Positions 10,031 through 63,177 of a DNA stretch of 64,000 nucleotides are shown here, piece after piece (within the stretch, counting starts at the first letter, position 1; every line of letters starts with the position of its first letter). The position numbers and the translations under genes are program-made. The stretch spans positions 144,398,001-144,462,000 of the forward strand of contig OX597814.1 of assembly GCA_951406725.2 (NCBI GenBank), in the 5' to 3' direction. This DNA comes from Octopus vulgaris. Lineage: Eukaryota. A model generated the notes under the pieces. The model saw only the letters and a program-made list of their open reading frames with translations. It ran no database searches and was not told the origin of the DNA.

Positions 10031-10099
<69 letters not shown>

Positions 10100-10146
10100 A
10101 CAAACAAACATATATATGTATACACATTCAAACATATATATATATA

Positions 10147-23419: not shown

Positions 23420-23498
23420 TATATATATGCATGTATATAAATATATCTATGTATATATTTGTATGTATATATATGTATGTATATATATATATATATGA

Positions 23499-23540
<42 letters not shown>

Positions 23541-24750: not shown

Positions 24751-25183
24751 ATGTGAAATAGAAAGATGAATAATCTTGTAGTAGATTAATCAAAAGTTTA
24801 ACCGATACCTTAGTAGCAAAAATCACAGCAGTAAAACAGCACGGTTGGAGGTACAACCATATGGTGTTGCAACCGTGCGTTGGTGCGGATAATTGAAATT
24901 AGAACATTATTGGTGAATTGAAGAAATGGAGCTGAACGCAGATTGAACAGAAATCGTTTTATTTCATTCTACACGTGTTTCGAAAGGCACAAATTACCAA
25001 AATCCGATGGAATAATGGGACCATATTGTGTCTTTCTCTTCAGGAAGAAAATAGGAAATCCGTTGGAAAAACAAAAACAGAACAGAGGCGGAGCAAAAAC
25101 AAATCGAACTATGCTCCTAAGAGCCCATGGCGAAACTCTGTTCAATCTGCGTTCAGCTCCATTTCTTCAATTCACCAATAATG

Positions 25184-35380: not shown

Positions 35381-36278
35381 TATTGCCACACTAGCGTGGC
35401 AGTCCAGAGGAAAAGGACGAATGCTGCTGTTGATTAGCTCCGAGAGTCGATCGCCTCTAGCTAGCCATATGACGCACAAATCTGCGTCCATAACACCTTC
35501 GAACAGGAGAGGTCATCAATGTCCCCTTGCTGGCTACAAGAATATTATTGAGGTTGTCAGACTCTGCATGAGGAGTAGACAACCACCATATATATATATA
35601 TATATATATAGCATTATTGACTGTAACTTCGAAGATTCGGCCAGCTAAATCATCGTCGGTAGTGAGAGAATAAGCACGGGTTTTAAAAATGAAATAATGA
35701 GGTTCATTAATTCGGCCCCAGTATGGCTACAGTCTAATGACTGAAACAAGTAAAAGATAAAAGTTAAAAGATAAATATTGAATTTAATTCTCTTCAGTTA
35801 GCAAACTATCAGCCATTTGTTAATTTTCAATTCTTGAATATCTTTTTTCTTTTGGAATATGATCTCTTGAATATGTTAAATCATATTAAATTTACATTCC
35901 TTTGGTTTTATAAAACTTATAGTATTTCATTTAAACTTTAAATTGTAACGTTGTTTTTCGCTTATTAAACCCATTTATTTTTCTTGAGAAATATTATGTT
36001 TTATTTTTTTACTTGTTTCAGTCACTGGGTTGCGGCAATTTAAGGTATCGCTTTGAAGGGTTTAGTCGAACAAATATAACCCAGAACATGCTTTTAAATG
36101 TAGTGCTTACTTTGTAGTTTACGTTTGCGGAACTGGTAGGTTACGGAGACGTAAACAAACCGAGGCCGGTTGTCAAGTGGTGGAAAGTACAAATGCAAGC
36201 ACACACATACACACAGCATATGTATATGTGTGTGTATGTAGATATATATGTAGATACGGTTATACATATATATATATT

Positions 36279-36321
<43 letters not shown>

Positions 36322-36418
36322 CATTTATATATATATTTGTATATATATATATATGTAAATATATATATATATATATATGTATAACTTTATCTACATATAT
36401 ATATATATATATATATGT

Positions 36419-36700
36419 AGACGGTTGAAAAGGAACGCACGAGTTGATATATATTGTAAAAAGTCAAGGTAGAAAATGCTAAAATAATTTTATAAAAAAA
36501 CATTTCAGTACCGGTTTCAGTCATTGAGACTTTTTCAACTGTAATCATAAAAAACAAATTTTGGAAAAATTAAAAGAAAAGTTTTTCAAAGAATATTTGA
36601 ATAGTATTCAAATACAACGGGCATTTTCCTTGTTTCTGCCTTCCCTGTCTCTCTTGTTTACTCTTGTGGGTTCGAGGTCGTTGTGAATTCTTAGCAGGGA
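36419..36700 (-). mobile_element. PLE-end-like element; second copy at 53284-53520 (+)
   Basis: Reverse complement of 53284-53520; abuts (TA)n; carries hammerhead. Confidence 0.85.
36506..36541 (-). ncRNA. 36-nt minimal hammerhead with U3:A8 core
   Basis: Minus: CAG-TTGAAAA-AGTC-TCAAT-GACT-GAAA-CCGG-TA-CTG. Stems I and II pair perfectly; palindromic ACCGGT. Confidence 0.82.
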
Positions 36701-36732
36701 AGAAGAAGAAAGAAAAGAAGAAGGAGGAGGAT

Positions 36733-37205
36733 GCGGGAGTGCCACTACTACCATCCACAAGTCACTTTTGGAAGTTTGCTTCGAAATTTCATGGTCCCTG
36801 GTTCATCCCTACTGCGTGGCATCTTGAGCAAGTATCGTCTAATATAGCCTCGGGCCTACCAAAGCCTTGTAAGTGGATTTGGTAGACGGAAACTGAAAGA
36901 AGCCCTTCGTGTATATATGAATGTATGTGTATGTCATATGTCTAGCTAGACGCGTTCGTGTGTGTGCGCACGTGCAATTGTGTGTGCTCGCGTGTGTGTG
37001 TGTCTTTCAGTCTGCCCCCACCCCTACCGCTTGACAACCGACGCTGGGTGGGTTTACGTCCCGGTAATTTAGCAATAAAAGACCGATAGAATAAGCACCA
37101 GGTTAAAACAATATGAGTAGTGGGGTCGATTCATTCGACAAAAAATCTTTGAAGGTGCCCCAGCTAGGCCGCAGTCTAATAACTGGAACAAGTAAAATAA
37201 AAAGA
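36733..37205 (+). mobile_element. SINE family A (diverged)
   Basis: GCCTCGGGCC.ACCAAAGCCTTG...GTAGACGGAAACTGAAAGAAGCCC and family 3' half. Confidence 0.8.
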
Positions 37206-37289
37206 AAAAGTATATAGATATATATTATATATACACATATATTTTATCTCTCTCGATATATATTTAGATAGACAGACAGACAGACAGAC

Positions 37290-37368
<79 letters not shown>

Positions 37369-37935
37369 CATTCCGTCAACTCAGAAGGCATTAGTCGGCC
37401 GGAGCTATAGTACAAGCGACTTGCCTAAAGTGCCACGCGGTGGGAGTGAACCTGAAACGACGAGGTTGCAAACCAACCTTCTTAACCACACAACCACACT
37501 TGTACCAATATTTCTATCAAAACTTAACAAAAGTGACGCAAGTCTACACAAATATCTAAAAAGAAGCCCCTACTAGTTGAGATAATATAATATGAATAAC
37601 AAATCACCGTTACATTAGCTTCTGCTGCATTAAAATAACTTGGTCTTCCTGTTCATTTTCTTTTCTATGAAAATCATTCAGAGGCGTAACTTGTAAAACG
37701 CCAAACGAAAATGATTTGAGGAACACAGCTTCAAATAGATGTTAATTTCCTGCTACTACCATAGTTGTAATAATTATTAATGAATTCGTAAGTATCCTCA
37801 CGTAATTTGATAACAATTTTCAGTGCATATAATTGAAGCTATACATATTTCACATAACGTTTTAGAATACGAGAACACATTTGTATGTGCGTGTATGTAA
37901 CTATATATATATATATATATATATATTTATTCATT

Positions 37936-38012
<77 letters not shown>

Positions 38013-38016
<4 letters not shown>

Positions 38017-38163
38017 GGGAATATGATTCCAAACTTACAGGGAAAAATTCAATTTACTAATACTAAATCAAATTTCACAATATATAAAATATGTATATAA
38101 ATTAGAGAAGAACTACCATGTAGCAATTCTACATGGTGGTTCTTCTCTAATTTATATACATAT
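38013..38163 (-). mobile_element. Short fold-back insertion between (TTA)n and (TA)n
   Basis: 35-bp arms 38089-38123 / 38129-38163 (1 mismatch), 5-nt loop, ~75 bp tail. Confidence 0.75.
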
Positions 38164-38205
38164 ATATATATATAATATATTGTACGCACACATACGTGTG
38201 CATAT

Positions 38206-38236
<31 letters not shown>

Positions 38237-38298
38237 TATTTCTACATGCATATATACATAGATACATATATAAATATAGGAACAAATCAAATATTAAA

Positions 38299-38347
<49 letters not shown>

Positions 38348-38456
38348 TATTCGTATAACTATATGTATATATACATATATATATATTCGTATAACTATAT
38401 ATATATATATATGTGTGTATATAAATATATTCGTATGAATCGTATATGCATACGTA

Positions 38457-38521
<65 letters not shown>

Positions 38522-38785
38522 TACTGTATGGAATCAGTTAAAGCGTGTCACTCTGCAAGTTAAACTCCAGAGGAACTTTCTACTTGTTGAATGAGGTCTA
38601 CAGTATAACTGGATTTTAAATCGTCAGACTTTACTGATTCAATTTAGCTTTTGCCCAAAGCTTATTTTAGCCATTTCATATATTTATTTTGTGGTATATA
38701 TATATGATGTGTGTGTGTTTGTGTGCCTGTGCGCGTGTGCATGTTTGCGTGTGCACGCGCGTGCATACATGCATATATATATATA

Positions 38786-39668
38786 TTGGGTCATCCCATG
38801 AATAATGCGGTTTTTTTATACTTTTCTTTTTAAAATCAAGATAAACAAAGTTCTTTTTTAATCTAAAATATACTCTCCTTCATTTTCTACAATGCTCTTC
38901 CATCTATCTAGTAAACTTGCAAGTCCCCTCTTCCAAAATCCGTGACAAAAAATACTCCTCCAGTACTGTTTTGACCTCGTCTACAGAAGTCATATTTTTT
39001 CCCTCCAAATGATTTTGAAGACTACAGAATAAATGATAATCAAATGGGGCAATGGCCGGCGAATATGGTGGGTGGTGCATCGTTCCCCATTCAAACTGCT
39101 CCACCCTTTGGTATGTCATCTCCGATGTATGCGACCCAGCATTATCCTGATGGAAGAACACCTTTCGTCTTGAAACAAAAGATGGTCGTTTTTCTTCTAG
39201 CGCTGACTTGAATGATTGGTTGAATGTCCAAATCTAAGCTTCTCTGCTAGTTCCTCAACCGTTACGATGGGATTTTGTTCCACCAGGGTTTGAAAGACGT
39301 CTTCGTCGAGCTCTACTGGTCATCCAGGACGAAGCTCGTTTTCTAGGCTTGGATTTTCTGGAACTACCGTTGACACTGGCTTACGCTTATTGTTTGATCC
39401 CCATATACTGCATTGATATTCCGCGCACCTTCCCTTGCGTTGTTACCTTTATTGAACGCATAAAGCAAAATATGCTAAATATGCTCCTTTGTCACTTCCA
39501 TTATAGCTCTGACTGTTAAAATCGAACTGCACTCTTCAAAACTTGCACTAGTAGAAGATAAAATTACTACCTGTTTTTAAAGCAAGTTGATGCAAGTAGT
39601 TTATCCCGCCCCCTCCGAATTTTAGTTCATGCAATTGAAAAAAATGCATTATTTATGGGATGAACCAA
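38786..39668 (-). mobile_element. mariner (DD34D) element, internally deleted
   Basis: TIRs TTGGGTCATCCCATGAATAATGC / GCATTATTTATGGGATGAACCAA, TA flanks; ATG at 39501 (MEVTKEHI); FHQDNA..H, HPPYSPAIAPFDYHLF. Confidence 0.93.
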
Positions 39669-39681
39669 TATATACAATATA

Positions 39682-40485
39682 CAGGCTACAGTGAATAAAC
39701 TAGCGTCTAAATTACGCAAAAATGAAAATAACACTGGCATCTCATTTTAAGATATATTTATCAAAATTACAAAAACATTTCTTGAAATACTAACTTTGTT
39801 CAATAAAGTCGCCATTGGCTTCACCAGCGGCCGCCAGACGACTTCGAAATTTCCTGCAACTCTTCTGGACGGCCTCATTGTTTAAGTAGGTGAATGTTGC
39901 CATAACCCTTGCATTCAGTTCATCTTTGGTGTTACAAGAAATTTTATTGGTCTTGCGCTCCACACCTAATAATCAAGGGATTTGCAGTCTGGAGAGTTAG
40001 GTGGTCAGAGGTTAGGGGTGATGTTGTCGCAAAAATCGTGACAGCCATGACTAGGTTCTCCTGCTTGTGCGGCATGGTGCAGAGTCCTGTTGTCTTCCAG
40101 CAGCCACCCTCTTGACCCAGGGCAGCACTTTCTCCTCCAGGCACTTGATGTAGGCCTCTGTATCGAATCTGAGGCATAATGTCGCCATCACTAGTGATCA
40201 CTCCAAACACTATGATGTTAACTGGACGTTTGATTTCTATCACTCTCGGTACATATCCTCAAATTGCACTGTCCTCAGATTGACACCCAAACAATCTGAA
40301 ATATTCGCATTGCAGCTTCCGGCGTGAATGCCAAGCCGTACAGCATGTCGTTTCCAAATTGCTAGCAGAGTGAACTGCATCATGGTGCAACTAAACCTAC
40401 TATACTGTGTAGTCGACAAAATCAAAAACAAACAATGCACGAAATTAAAATTATAAAATGGCGACAATTTACCCATCGCACCTTG
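39682..40485 (-). mobile_element. maT/DD37D-type Tc1-mariner element, deleted
   Basis: Diverged TIRs with TA flanks; IVFGVITSDG; QQDSAPC.TSRRT..W....PPNSPDC..LDY.VW. Confidence 0.82.
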
Positions 40486-40528
40486 TATATCATCATCATT
40501 ATTATTTTTATTATCATCATCATCATCA

Positions 40529-40578
<50 letters not shown>

Positions 40579-40993
40579 GTTATTATTATTATTAGGACCA
40601 TCTCGTCAGTGGACGGACTGTTTATAGCTAGAATATATTTGATAACATTTATGTTCCCAGGACTCATTTAATCGTAAACGACATTAAAAACAAACAAGCA
40701 TTCGCATACATATGCATAGTTGCACACCTACTCTCACAAAAATACTATGTGAAGCGGAAACATGACAAGATAATCTGACGAGTCCCCAAAAACAGAAGAA
40801 TGTTATTTCTAGGGAATATTTTGCCACAATTTCTAGCAATTTTAGTGAACAGATAGAAGTTCTAATTTTTTAGGTCGAAGTTAGTATTGTACCTAATCTT
40901 TAAAATATGTGCAATGTTTCATTCGGTGATGCGCAGTTATGTGAAAAAATTTTGTTGAATTTTATATATACAGACACCCAGACACGCGCGCGC

Positions 40994-41029
<36 letters not shown>

Positions 41030-41030
41030 T

Positions 41031-41124
<94 letters not shown>

Positions 41125-42260
41125 TTTTGTTACATGTTATCTGAATACTTTTATTTTAATAAATGTTGCTTACTGCAAGTTATGGATGATTCTTTTATGC
41201 CTTCATTGCTTTCAGGCTTAGCTTAAGGTATTTTCGCGCCCGACATCACAAAATGCGTCTGAATAAACATTGCTGGACAGCAAATAGAGACTCGGACATT
41301 GCTTAGAAAATATTTTTCATTTTTAACAGTATTATTTAACTGTTGAATTATATTAAGTTTGATTGTTAAAACATCAATTTATATATAATTTCTTGATAAT
41401 TATTAGTTACGATATGTATATCTATTTATTTATTTATTAGGTTTATGATTATTATTAATTTTATAATGTGATTTAACGAATTACATATAATTTAATTTGA
41501 AAATTAGTTTTGTAAGACAATAAATTATTTAATAGTTAGGTGATCTATTTATTACATAGTATTAAATTTAAGTAAATCAGTTTAATATTAATTGATATTT
41601 TGGTCAACTATATAATTGAGTAAAATATTAAATCTATATATACTACATATATATTAATATTAATAATATAGTTAGTTAATCTAATAGGTGTATGTATATT
41701 TAGACCATTTCCTCTTATTAATTTTAATATTTATATCTTGTACAAGCATTATGTATATTACTTAACATTAAGGTTTTTAATATATAGCATAATATTTTAT
41801 TTAGATGTTTATTAAATAAATAAGTTAATAATTTAATGTATATAGATTAAATTATAGTATTTAGTTTTCACCTAATGTATATTTTGTATTTTATTTATAT
41901 ATATATATTCATTTTAAATATTTTAATTAATTGTATCTTATTTTTATTCTTTTTTTTTATTTAAACAAGAATATATTTGTTAAGATATTTCGTATTTTAC
42001 AAGATTATTTACGTATATTTATTAATTTATCTAATTAACTATTTATTTGTTTTTATCTTTAACCTGAAGAGTGGCTATATTTATATTGAAGTGATTTCAA
42101 TATTACTATTACTATTATCATTTCTTAAATATAGCCACGTAACACGTGTCGTTATTCTACCAAATATATATGTTTTATTTACTATTTTGCGCATTACGTA
42201 ATCATTGTTATATGTTTTATCTTATATTTAATCTTTCTATAATATGTAATCTTTCTAAAT
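41125..42260 (+). mobile_element. Probable PLE 3' end (very AT-rich UTR + hammerhead)
   Basis: Weak RH..K..L stop-proximal motif near 41230-41305, ~750 bp AT-rich tract, hammerhead at 42060-42154. Confidence 0.55.
42060..42154 (+). ncRNA. Type I hammerhead, GAAA>GTAA
   Basis: TAAC-CTGAAGA-GTGGCTATATTT...AAATATAGCCAC-GTAA-CACGTG-TC-GTTA. 4-bp stem I, 12-bp stem II. Confidence 0.85.
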
Positions 42261-42284
42261 GGTATAATTTAATTTTTCTGATAA

Positions 42285-42412
42285 CAATGTTTGACGAAAA
42301 GGCTTGATGAAAATGTTTGACGAAATTGTTTGATGAAAATGTCTGATGAAAATGTTTAATGAAAATGTTTGATTAAAATGTCTGCTGGAAATATCTGATG
42401 AAAATGATTGAC
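42285..42412. repeat. 13-bp minisatellite (TGATGAAAATGTY) x~9
   Basis: Directly visible. Confidence 0.9.
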
Positions 42413-42427
42413 GTAGACATAAATATG

Positions 42428-42491
<64 letters not shown>

Positions 42492-43310
42492 CTTATATAT
42501 TTATACACACATATATACAAATACACAAATATATATACACATCCACACATGCAAAAAAGACATACATACATACATATACTCCAAAGAAAATACATACATA
42601 AAAACATATAGAAATATACACAGATATATACACTTATATAGATTATACTGTATATAGGTGTGTGCGCATGAATAATGTGTGTATGTGTGTGTGCGTGTGT
42701 GTGTGAATATTTGGATATCTATATGTAGTTATGTGTATACAAACTTTACTTTCACAAATGTAAATATATACATTCGAGTATACAAGCACTGGTACGCACG
42801 CACGTGTGTACGTGTCTGCAAGTGAGCATGTGTCTCTTTGTATGTGTGAGTGTGTTTGCGTGAGTGTGTTTGCGTGTGCATGCGCATGTGTGAGTATGTG
42901 TGATTATTTGCGTGTGTACTCTTTTATAGGTTTTAGCCTTCTGCTTGTGATCTAGCACCGCCACAATTATTTTCTATTTGATCTATGTGTTTTTAAGTGG
43001 TTTTAGATATTAATTGCTAATTATGTACCACTCAGTGTTAATAATTAGTATACCTTTGATTATTGCTTTACTGCGAGAAAACTGCCAAACCCTCTAATTC
43101 TCTAAAATATATACGTAATATATTGCAGTGAGCATAGTGTCAAGGCAAGATGTTACATTTGCACTACTGTATTAGTCTTCTGCTAGTATACTGTCAGCAG
43201 ATCAATTTGTTATAATTCGTATAGCAAAGCCAATACCCAATGATCGATTCCCTATTGTGTATATATATATATAGATATATATATGTGTGTGTGTGTGTGT
43301 GCGTGTGTGC

Positions 43311-43345
<35 letters not shown>

Positions 43346-43428
43346 ACAAAGTGAAGTTGTAAGGTACCGCACGAGTGGAAATATATATGAAAGAAGGTTT
43401 GAAAATGCAATTTTAAAAATGTTTATTC

Positions 43429-43470
43429 ACTTGACCGGTTTCACTTTTTTAGAAAAAGATTGTCAAAAGT
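43429..43470 (-). ncRNA. Minimal hammerhead with U3:A8 core
   Basis: Minus: ACTT-TTGACAA-TCTTTTT-CTA-AAAAAGT-GAAA-CCGG-TC-AAGT; lies in an element of about 43343-43740 abutting (TG)n. Confidence 0.75.
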
Positions 43471-43939
43471 AAAATGTAAAGCTTTGTATAAGCTTTGTTG
43501 TGTTAAGTACTGGTTGTCACAAAAGTATTAAAATACATATATACATTCTTTGATAATAATAAGAAAATGTTGAAAACAGTTTACAAGGAAATATCTGACA
43601 AAATATTAGACAAAAAGTTCAATAAAAATATTAGTTCATTAAAAATCATGTTTGTTTGGATGTAACTATATACATACGCAGAAAAGTATTAGGAGTTCAA
43701 AAAAGTCATATTTGGTAGTATATATATATATACACACAGAAGGAGATATATTTAGGAGTTTACAAAGAATTTGAGATGAACTACTTATCGATCCTAATAG
43801 AATGTAAAGCAGAATGTAGACTTGTGTCTAAATAATGAGGAATATATACCGTTGACGCAGTACCATACAATATGGCTTAATGTTGTTGGTCTCAGAAGAA
43901 TCTGATAGGTAATAAAACTCTGGATTGCAGGTAATTTTT

Positions 43940-53283: not shown

Positions 53284-53520
53284 AAATTCTCTGCCAAGAA
53301 TTCACAACGACCTCGAACCCACAAGAGTAAACAAGAGAGACAGAGACAGGCAGAAACGAGGAACATGCCCCTTGTATTTGAATACTATGCAAATATTTAG
53401 TTTTTCCAAAATTTAATTGTTTGCCATTGTTACAGTTGAAGATGTCTCAATGACTGAAACCGGTGCTGAAATGTTTTTTATAAAATTTTTAAGCATTTTC
53501 TACCTTGACATTTTTCTATA
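53284..53520 (+). mobile_element. Second copy of the 36419-36700 element with decayed hammerhead (53433-53468)
   Basis: CAG-TTGAAGA-TGTC-TCAAT-GACT-GAAA-CCGG-TG-CTG; the GUG triplet is not cleavable. Confidence 0.85.
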
Positions 53521-53529
53521 TATATATAT

Positions 53530-62599: not shown

Positions 62600-63177
62600 A
62601 AGAGGGTGAGCTTGCAGAAACGTTAGCACGCTGGGCCAAATGCTCAGCGATATTTCGTCTGCCGTTACGTTCTGAGTTCAAATTCCGCCGAGGTCGACTT
62701 TGCCTTTCATCCGTTCGGGGTCGATTAAATGAGTACCAGTTACGCACTGGGGTCGATATAATCGACTTAATCCGTTTGTCTTTCCGTGTTTGTCCTCTCT
62801 GTGTTTAGCTCCTTGTGGGTAGTAAACAAATAGGTATTTCGTCTGCCACTACGTTCTGAGTTCAAATTCCGCCGAGGTCGACTTTGCCTTTCATCCTTTC
62901 GGGGTCGATTAGATAAGTACCAGTTACGCACTGGGATCGATATGATCGACTTAATCCTTTTGTGTGTCCTTGTTTGTCCACTCTATGTTTAACCTCTTGT
63001 GGGTAGTAAAGAATAGGTAATTGGTCTGTCTTTACGTTCTGAGTTCAAATTTCGCCGAGGTCGACTTTGTCCTCCATCCTTCCGGAGTCGCTAAATTAAG
63101 TACCAGTTGCATACCAGGGTTGATCTAATCGACTAGCCCCCTCCCTCAAAAATTCGAGTCTTGTGCCTAGAGTAGAA
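62600..63177 (+). mobile_element. Trimeric family B SINE with 16-bp TSD
   Basis: Three ~175-bp B-box/core units; AAGAAATGTCAAGCTG at 62584-99 and 63178-93. Confidence 0.92.

What the first reader, a model, noticed from the sequence alone, without database searches (positions are those of the whole stretch)
36506..43470. Two related element families with U3:A8 covariant minimal hammerheads
Seen: 36506-36541(-) reads CAG-UUGAAAA-AGUC/GACU-GAAA-CCGG-UA-CUG. 43429-43470(-) reads ACUU-UUGACAA-stem-GAAA-CCGG-UC-AAGU. Stems I and II differ completely yet pair in each, both keep ACCGGU, and both elements share a similar tail (AAGG.AC.GCACGAGT.GA.ATATA...GAAAATGC). Known: the core C3-G8 is a tertiary Watson-Crick pair and U3-A8 is a rarer compensatory variant that CUGANGA searches miss. 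Inference: a PLE lineage with a selected non-canonical ribozyme core.
Basis: partly seen in the sequence, partly recalled or inferred. Interest (0 to 1): 0.8.

Follow-up and report, generated by a model that had tools for sequence, protein, structure and literature searches.

The report
Retroelement hammerheads swapping a core pair
Both motifs are real copies of the small hammerhead RNA fold carried by Penelope-like jumping genes; their U-A core pair is already published, but sister families in the same genome carry A-U and G-C at that pair, which likely means the element keeps this fold under selection, although cutting is untested.

Summary
Observation confirmed. Both motifs are type I minimal hammerheads with a U3-A8 core and a palindromic ACCGGU stem III. 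They lie in the 3' ends of 5'-truncated Penelope-like elements (RT plus C-terminal GIY-YIG, Neptune-type linker). U3-A8 is the family state: 104 of 112 copies read, none C3-G8. That variant is in print (Perreault 2011; Cervera and de la Pena 2014), and this scan found it before in other genomes. The new part lies outside the given coordinates. The same RT clade holds families with A3-U8 and G3-C8. Genome-wide pattern hits: U-A 11,580, A-U 1,810, C-G 372, G-C 178. Within one family group, 94 of the first 100 of 269 copies are A-U or G-C and 6 are mismatched. Trees put U-A at the base and imply at least three compensated double switches. I found neither pair described as natural in the papers I could search; the key paper (Lunse 2017) was not available, and scan notes report both in phages. 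Likely mechanism: slow, dimer-dependent, probably protein-assisted self-cleavage. No cleavage evidence was obtained.

The parts
36419..36745 (-). 5'-truncated 3' end of a family A Penelope-like element (3' UTR / pseudo-LTR and tail), ending in a (TA)n tract
   Evidence: 86-88% identity to the 3' ends of RT-bearing copies L086 and L083 up to 36731; ends read from the sequence; TA array 36261-36416
36746..36771 (+). short piece of family A 3' UTR in inverted orientation at the 5' junction
   Evidence: read by eye against longer copies printed; not tested by a separate call
36506..36541 (-). minimal type I hammerhead of family A: U3 36538, A8 36533, A10.1-U11.1, ACCGGU 36515-36510, predicted cut after A17 at 36509
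36419..36505 (-). tail 3' of hammerhead A, homologous to the tail of B
   Evidence: score 74, 0 of 1000 shuffles
43344..43781 (-). 5'-truncated 3' end of a family B Penelope-like element, ending in a (TA)/(CA) tract
   Evidence: 84-87% identity to L044 and to RT/EN-bearing L201; TG array 43284-43342
43426..43473 (-). minimal type I hammerhead of family B: U3 43466, A8 43461, U10.1.U11.1 mismatch plus 6-bp stem II, ACCGGU, predicted cut after C17 at 43433
43344..43425 (-). tail 3' of hammerhead B
53287..53529 (+). third, decayed family A copy in the window; its hammerhead (53433-53468) has U3, G8 and G17

Best explanation
The two motifs are minimal type I hammerheads in the 3' repeats of truncated Penelope-like retroelements whose clade carries U-A, A-U or G-C at core pair 3:8, and they likely self-cleave slowly as dimers in the parent element's RNA. 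Shown: the sequence anatomy, the family-level core states, the link to RT and GIY-YIG genes, and the clade. Inferred: one copy cannot close stem III, so two copies would pair through the self-complementary ACCGGU to give a 6-bp stem III and a double hammerhead. The 3:8 pair would only position the 2'-OH of residue 8, so any Watson-Crick pair would do while mismatches are purged at the level of active families. Cleavage would fall after H17 and would likely need the element's own protein as a chaperone. Genomic copies keep the tail beyond H17, so the RNA that was copied was likely uncut (or religated) at this site. The two window copies are likely inert fragments.
For: Family state: U3-A8 in 12 of 13 RT-anchored A copies, 25 of 28 upstream-anchored B copies, and 32 of 35 and 35 of 36 copies found with queries that included the ribozyme; none C3-G8. 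PLE link: family A tail lies downstream of RT on the same strand in 9 of 20 RT loci; Pfam RVT_1 and GIY-YIG matches, just under the curated cut-offs for the fragments and above it for RVT_1 in L216; B linked to RT and EN in L201, B2 in L216. Covariation: Watson-Crick 3:8 in 13,940 of 16,452 genome-wide pattern hits (85%) against 551 of 1,997 control hits (28%). Family group E with positions 3 and 8 left free: 56 A-U, 38 G-C, 6 mismatched among the first 100 of 269, counted by hand. With both positions masked, A-U copies still group together. Stems I and II change sequence and length between families and keep pairing. Cofolding of two copies gives the intermolecular ACCGGU helix as minimum-energy state in 6 of 8 examples and an exact double-hammerhead layout for the A3-U8 copy L277; monomer hammerhead folds are +1.4 to +3.5 kcal/mol in the 7 clade examples. 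Literature: dimer-only, low activity of PLE minimal hammerheads (PMC4209133); C3G/G8C rescue and protein-assisted cleavage in a PLE hammerhead (PMC11167929).
Against: No cleavage was shown. Copies within a family are not independent, so the large counts reflect few events (at least three). Stem II is weak in several families (2 bp in C and D, 1 bp in E2; U.U at 10.1:11.1 in B). In family A, A17 can pair with U3 and the predicted folds do so, like the inhibitory C3-G17 trap (PMC3884650); 55 of 105 U3-A8 motifs in my loci have A17. I found no direct-repeat (pLTR-ORF-pLTR) copy that would place two hammerheads on one transcript; the paired copies I saw are inverted, and one candidate direct pair had no ORF between. 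Family B's link to RT rests on one copy (L201) plus the related B2 copy (L216). The order of clades C, D and E is unresolved (bootstrap 55; FastTree joins D with E/F at 0.80). Genome-wide counts include overlapping false starts and a non-hammerhead repeat.
Confidence: 0.75

Rival explanations
1. The fold is kept, but as a non-cleaving structure that the element's RT/EN protein binds for packaging, dimerisation or template choice. The 3:8 pair is selected for shape, not catalysis.
For: In a Poseidon PLE, ribozyme-dead mutants transpose normally in vitro and no RNA-seq reads end at the cut site (PMC11167929). Copies keep the tail past H17. Weak stem II and U3-A17 pairing.
Against: G5, A6, A9, G12, A13, A14, A15.1-U16.1 and H17 are kept across families whose proteins are only about 45-60% identical; the 3:8 pair is a feature of the active core (PMC3884650).
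Confidence: 0.18
2. The core is decaying under relaxed selection and the apparent pairing of 3 and 8 is a few chance double changes amplified by copy number.
For: Only about three independent switches are needed; the genome is AT-rich, which favours C to U and G to A; single-copy mismatches exist (8 of 112 in A and B).
Against: Every high-copy clade family examined has a Watson-Crick pair; U-A to A-U or G-C needs changes at both positions, and G3-C8 runs against AT pressure; 6 of 100 mismatches in group E, scattered over four types; both positions change at similar shares in four other organisms' assemblies.
Confidence: 0.06
3. The motifs belong to non-autonomous tandem retrozymes rather than to protein-coding PLEs.
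For: Most copies are short and carry no ORF; tandem 359-bp arrays with a canonical C3-G8, ACCGGU hammerhead exist in this genome.
Against: A and B copies are dispersed, 5'-truncated, often 5'-inverted, and continuous with RT/EN in long copies; no tandem array of A or B was seen.
Confidence: 0.01

Closest known systems
Minimal hammerheads of metazoan Penelope-like elements, U3-A8 variant of Schistosoma mansoni Cercyon elements (Cervera and de la Pena 2014, PMC4209133; main text parts 1-2 and supplement parts 1-2 read)
   Same: Type I topology, position in the pseudo-LTR, palindromic stem III, dispersed truncated copies, inverted pairs, U3-A8 core (their family Sm4 has the same UUGAAAA box; about 1,300 hits).
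   Different: Here there is no bulged base before stem II and stem II is short (1-6 bp); the palindrome is 6 nt; A and B lack G10.1-C11.1; U3-A8 is the main state (11,580 hits); sister families carry A3-U8 and G3-C8, which are absent from the 56 examples of their Fig. S3; no cephalopod is in that figure.
Natural U3-A8 hammerheads (Perreault et al. 2011, PMC3088659; passages and part 3 of 8 read)
   Same: C3-G8 to U3-A8 covariation in nature; tolerated U10.1-U11.1 mismatch; stems II of one or two pairs.
   Different: In the passages read only U3-A8 is named as natural covariation at this pair; no phylogenetic series of switches.
Poseidon PLE hammerhead of Anolis (Frangieh et al. 2024, PMC11167929; passages read)
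   Same: PLE hammerhead; G3-C8 double mutant partly active; uncut RNA used for insertion.
   Different: There G3-C8 is an engineered rescue and the core is C3-G8; here G3-C8 is a natural family state; different PLE clade.
Neptune/Nematis clades of EN+ PLEs (Craig et al. 2021, PMC8557442; passages read)
   Same: RT followed by a CX2-5CXXC linker and C-terminal GIY-YIG; insertion into microsatellites; 5' inversions; tail.
   Different: No named reference elements were in my tree, so Neptune versus Nematis is not settled.

Membership tests
Type I minimal hammerhead of PLEs | Core boxes N3-U4-G5-A6-N7-N8-A9 and G12-A13-A14-A15.1 with U16.1-H17 | tested here: met
Type I minimal hammerhead of PLEs | Watson-Crick pair between 3 and 8 (canonical C3-G8; U3-A8 accepted variant) | tested here: met
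   U3-A8 in 104 of 112 A and B copies; canonical C3-G8 itself not met
Type I minimal hammerhead of PLEs | Stem I closing both ends and stem II, with compensatory changes between families | tested here: met
   stem I 3-7 bp, stem II 1-6 bp across examples; different pairing sequences
Type I minimal hammerhead of PLEs | G10.1-C11.1 pair and a bulged base after A9 (consensus of PMC4209133) | tested here: not met
   A has A-U, B has U.U; sister families A2, C, D, E have G-C; no bulge. A common but not invariant feature: Perreault 2011 reports an U.U example
Type I minimal hammerhead of PLEs | Short palindromic stem III allowing a dimer | tested here: met
   ACCGGU homoduplex -8.3 kcal/mol; cofold structures
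Type I minimal hammerhead of PLEs | Location in the flanking repeat of a PLE | tested here: met
   3' of RT/EN; a 5' direct copy was not found
Type I minimal hammerhead of PLEs | Self-cleavage at H17 | not testable with these tools
   RNA reads were uninformative
EN+ Penelope-like element, Neptune/Nematis type | Single ORF with RT and C-terminal GIY-YIG | tested here: met
   684 open codons in L216; GIY-YIG scores 20-22 bits, just under the Pfam cut-off of 22.6
EN+ Penelope-like element, Neptune/Nematis type | CX2-5CXXC linker before the endonuclease and cysteines of the CCHH motif | tested here: met
   CX4CXXC and the FTC...C..C block in most family representatives, decayed in some copies
EN+ Penelope-like element, Neptune/Nematis type | Placement among named Neptune or Nematis references in an RT tree | not tested
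   outgroups were unnamed proteins
EN+ Penelope-like element, Neptune/Nematis type | 5' truncation, inverted 5' copies, tail, microsatellite targets | tested here: met
Non-LTR retrozyme | Head-to-tail tandem units, each with a type I hammerhead, no protein | tested here: not met
   A and B are dispersed and RT-linked

The most novel reading that the evidence does not exclude
One clade of Penelope-like elements has walked the hammerhead's 3:8 core pair through U-A, A-U and G-C by at least three compensated double changes, so all four Watson-Crick pairs occur as repeat families in one animal genome. A3-U8 and G3-C8 would be the first high-copy eukaryotic examples, and the series would be direct evolutionary evidence that PLE hammerheads are selected for catalytic geometry, with over ten thousand motifs per genome invisible to CUGANGA and Rfam searches.
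Probability: 0.45. Interest if true: 0.65.

Novelty: new variant of a known kind. Interest (0 to 1): 0.48.

Why it matters
Whether PLE hammerheads do anything for the element is open: Craig 2021 says their function is unclear and that they may parasitise PLEs, and Frangieh 2024 found cleavage dispensable for insertion in vitro. Repeated compensated switches at a tertiary core pair are hard to explain without selection on the folded core. Near-identical sibling subfamilies that differ only at 3 and 8 (G-C versus A-U) give a ready natural test set. It also means ribozyme censuses that demand CUGANGA or use Rfam miss most of this class in such genomes. The U3-A8 pair in the window, taken alone, is an ordinary new member.

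Tried and rejected
Rfam: no hammerhead among the 150 best of 429 window matches, which are microsatellite artefacts, nor in targeted scans. Expression: no RNA holder listed. Raw reads of three RNA runs of a coded organism (about 6% of each run read) gave 120, 91 and 47 reads at 85% likeness on copy A, in both mate directions, with no pile-up of starts or ends; fragmented, apparently unstranded libraries cannot show cleavage, so this is no evidence either way. C3-G8 outgroup: 20 long and 46 short loci around canonical-core motifs gave no close RT relative; one locus (L347) held a distant PLE ORF at about 30-35% identity, so no C3-G8 family could be placed in the clade and the entry from C-G is inferred only. 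Direct tandem: the pair at G000:C1:1803268 and 1806412 has no ORF between. L164/L211 was first read as an A3-U8 element; its RT belongs to a decayed U3-A8 motif nearer the ORF, and it was relabelled. The CTGATTA repeat among pattern hits (8 of the first 100) has no stem I and was rejected as a hammerhead. The pattern fixed position 8 by my slip; it shows only U3 in 99 of the first 100 of 966 family A copies given A8. A 39-row IQ-TREE run timed out; the FastTree used 30 of those rows plus 12 outgroups (9 short or redundant rows dropped) and the IQ-TREE 12 rows plus 4 outgroups. In the group E tree 12 of 80 copies were dropped as too short. Papers not held: Lunse 2017 and Przybilski and Hammann 2007; one search fetched an unrelated paper. 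Supplement file 1 of PMC4209133 was not searchable and part 3 of file 2 was not read.
Full report
Setting. The window is G000:C1:144398001-144462000 of a 2.8-Gb, 227-contig assembly, about 33% GC and rich in microsatellites. Its repeats look like those of an octopus; that is recalled, not tested.

Observation. Copy A has stem I of 3 pairs, U3 and A8, a 4-pair stem II opening with A-U, GAAA, ACCGGU and A17. Copy B has stem I of up to 7 pairs, U3 and A8, a U.U mismatch then 6 pairs in stem II, and C17. The tails align better than all 1000 shuffles, the upstream parts do not. The motif pattern hits 2 times in the window and never in 100 shuffles. Rfam does not report these motifs.

Family state. 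Each copy belongs to a large dispersed family (1,442 and 2,727 first-look candidates, 40 scored each). Copies end 3' in (TA)n or (CA)n, are truncated at variable 5' points and often carry an inverted 5' piece. To avoid query bias I also read the core in copies found through the RT (family A) or an upstream segment (family B). U3-A8 was present in 12 of 13 and 25 of 28 of these, and in 32 of 35 and 35 of 36 copies from ribozyme-containing queries. The 8 exceptions are single mismatches or one misaligned truncated piece; none is C3-G8. So U3-A8 is inherited, not local decay.

Parent elements. An RT fragment next to one A copy led to 20 RT loci; in 9 the A tail lies about 1.4-1.9 kb downstream on the same strand, and 4 have an inverted copy. 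The ORFs match RVT_1 and GIY-YIG and have a CX4CXXC linker, the mark of Neptune and Nematis PLEs in PMC8557442 (passages). Family B is continuous with RT and EN in L201, and the related B2 has 684 open codons in L216. A and B proteins are about 48-57% identical.

Beyond the finding. A genome-wide pattern with positions 3 and 8 free and ACCGGU fixed gives 16,452 hits against 1,997 for the reversed control. By pair: U-A 11,580 (control 95), A-U 1,810 (344), C-G 372 (43), G-C 178 (69). That is 85% Watson-Crick against 28% in controls. These counts hold only for this stem III and gap range, and include overlapping false starts (the window's copy A appears once in the A-U list that way). The A-U and G-C hits are mostly families with their own paired stems I, and they lie 380-540 bases 3' of RT/EN on the same strand. 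In family group E, a pattern free at 3 and 8 found 269 copies (control 1); of the first 100 listed, 56 are A-U (one from family D), 38 G-C and 6 mismatched (2 A.C, 2 G.G, 1 C.C, 1 U.C), counted by hand. Some A-U and G-C copies are identical across the ribozyme except at these two bases. In a DNA tree of 68 of 80 group E copies with both positions masked, all but one of the A-U copies fall in one group (support 0.9) that also holds one G-C, one C.C and one A.C copy, and the deeper branches are G-C. Contigs from four runs labelled as four other organisms show the same two changes at 77-89% (position 8) and 87-96% (position 3) of depth, unphased.

Tree. The families form one clade against unnamed relatives (FastTree 1.0; bootstrap 93). 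B/B2 and then A (all U-A) branch first (100, 98); C (U-A), D (A-U) and E/F (G-C, with A-U nested) follow in unresolved order. U-A is therefore the likely ancestral state of the clade, and at least three compensated double changes are needed. The earlier step from C-G is inferred from other PLEs; canonical-core motifs in this genome showed no close RT. Copy counts are not independent events.

Mechanism. A monomer can close only one pair over a 4-base loop in stem III, and its hammerhead fold is unfavourable (+1.4 to +3.5 kcal/mol in 7 clade examples). Two copies gain the 6-pair ACCGGU helix, and the cofold of the A3-U8 copy L277 is an exact double hammerhead. This matches the dimer model and low in vitro activity in PMC4209133. 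Residue 8 acts through its 2'-OH and C3G partly rescues G8C (PMC8495972); the same rescue and a need for the element's protein were shown for a PLE hammerhead (PMC11167929). I infer slow, dimer- and protein-dependent cleavage of element transcripts. Because copies keep 85 or more bases past H17, the copied RNA was likely uncut there. Against activity: weak stems II, possible U3-A17 pairing in family A, no direct tandem found, and no cleavage data.

Prior knowledge. U3-A8 is in print for natural hammerheads (PMC3088659) and for PLE minimal hammerheads (PMC4209133; Fig. S3 lists U3-A8 in two Schistosoma families and no A3-U8 or G3-C8 among 56). Searches for the other pairs: 'A3-U8' and 'A3 U8' had 0 occurrences in the 25 listed of 67 papers; 'G3-C8' occurred once among 30 listed of 39, as an engineered variant; the motif spellings gave 0 papers; one search returned only Perreault; octopus with Penelope and hammerhead gave no description of these families. 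The library lacks most subscription papers, and Lunse 2017, the largest survey of this class, was not held, so absence from print is not established. Unchecked scan notes report U3-A8 in several PLEs, G3-C8 in phages and protist PLEs, and A3-U8 in one phage; none from this genome.

Verdict. The finding as written is real and is a new member of a known kind. The wider series of core-pair switches in the same clade is a new variant of a known kind and carries the interest. Interest 0.48.

Noticed in passing
window 42061-42153 (+): Canonical C3-G8 hammerhead with a very long stem II and an ACACGUGU palindrome; GAAA has decayed to GUAA. Related intact motifs occur elsewhere.
   Followed up: partly
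window 24967-25046 (-): Second canonical C3-G8 hammerhead with long stem II and ACACGUGU palindrome, intact core.
   Followed up: partly
window 53287-53529 (+): Third family A copy with decayed core (U3, G8, G17).
   Followed up: yes
window 10047-10117 and 23438-23515 (+): Short fragments of the family B 3' UTR without the ribozyme.
   Followed up: no
L189-L195 (G000:C1:20002278-20004542): Tandem arrays of about 359-bp units, each with a canonical C3-G8, ACCGGU hammerhead; retrozyme-like and nearly identical, so probably young.
   Followed up: partly
L307-L326: A C3-G8 family with an extra A before GAAA and a longer stem II; no RT found within 4.5 kb upstream in 20 loci.
   Followed up: partly
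one search list, e.g. L328-L331, L350-L355: Many C3-G8 motifs with ACACGUGU have a fixed 33-base length but very different, poorly pairing stem II sequences; unexplained.
   Followed up: no
tails of families A-E: Most families keep a GCATTTTC-like box and a CACGTG/CTCGTG-like box near the 3' end, candidates for the protein-binding or RT-start signal.
   Followed up: no
L216:3830-5840: Family B2 copy with a 2-kb 3' UTR whose simple-repeat part appears internally inverted, and a 790-bp inverted 5' copy 98.6% identical to the 3' end.
   Followed up: no
window 62651-63108: 2.5 tandem copies of a 184-bp repeat unit, a common dispersed repeat in this window.
   Followed up: no
window 42286-42411: 13-bp minisatellite, 9.7 copies.
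   Followed up: no
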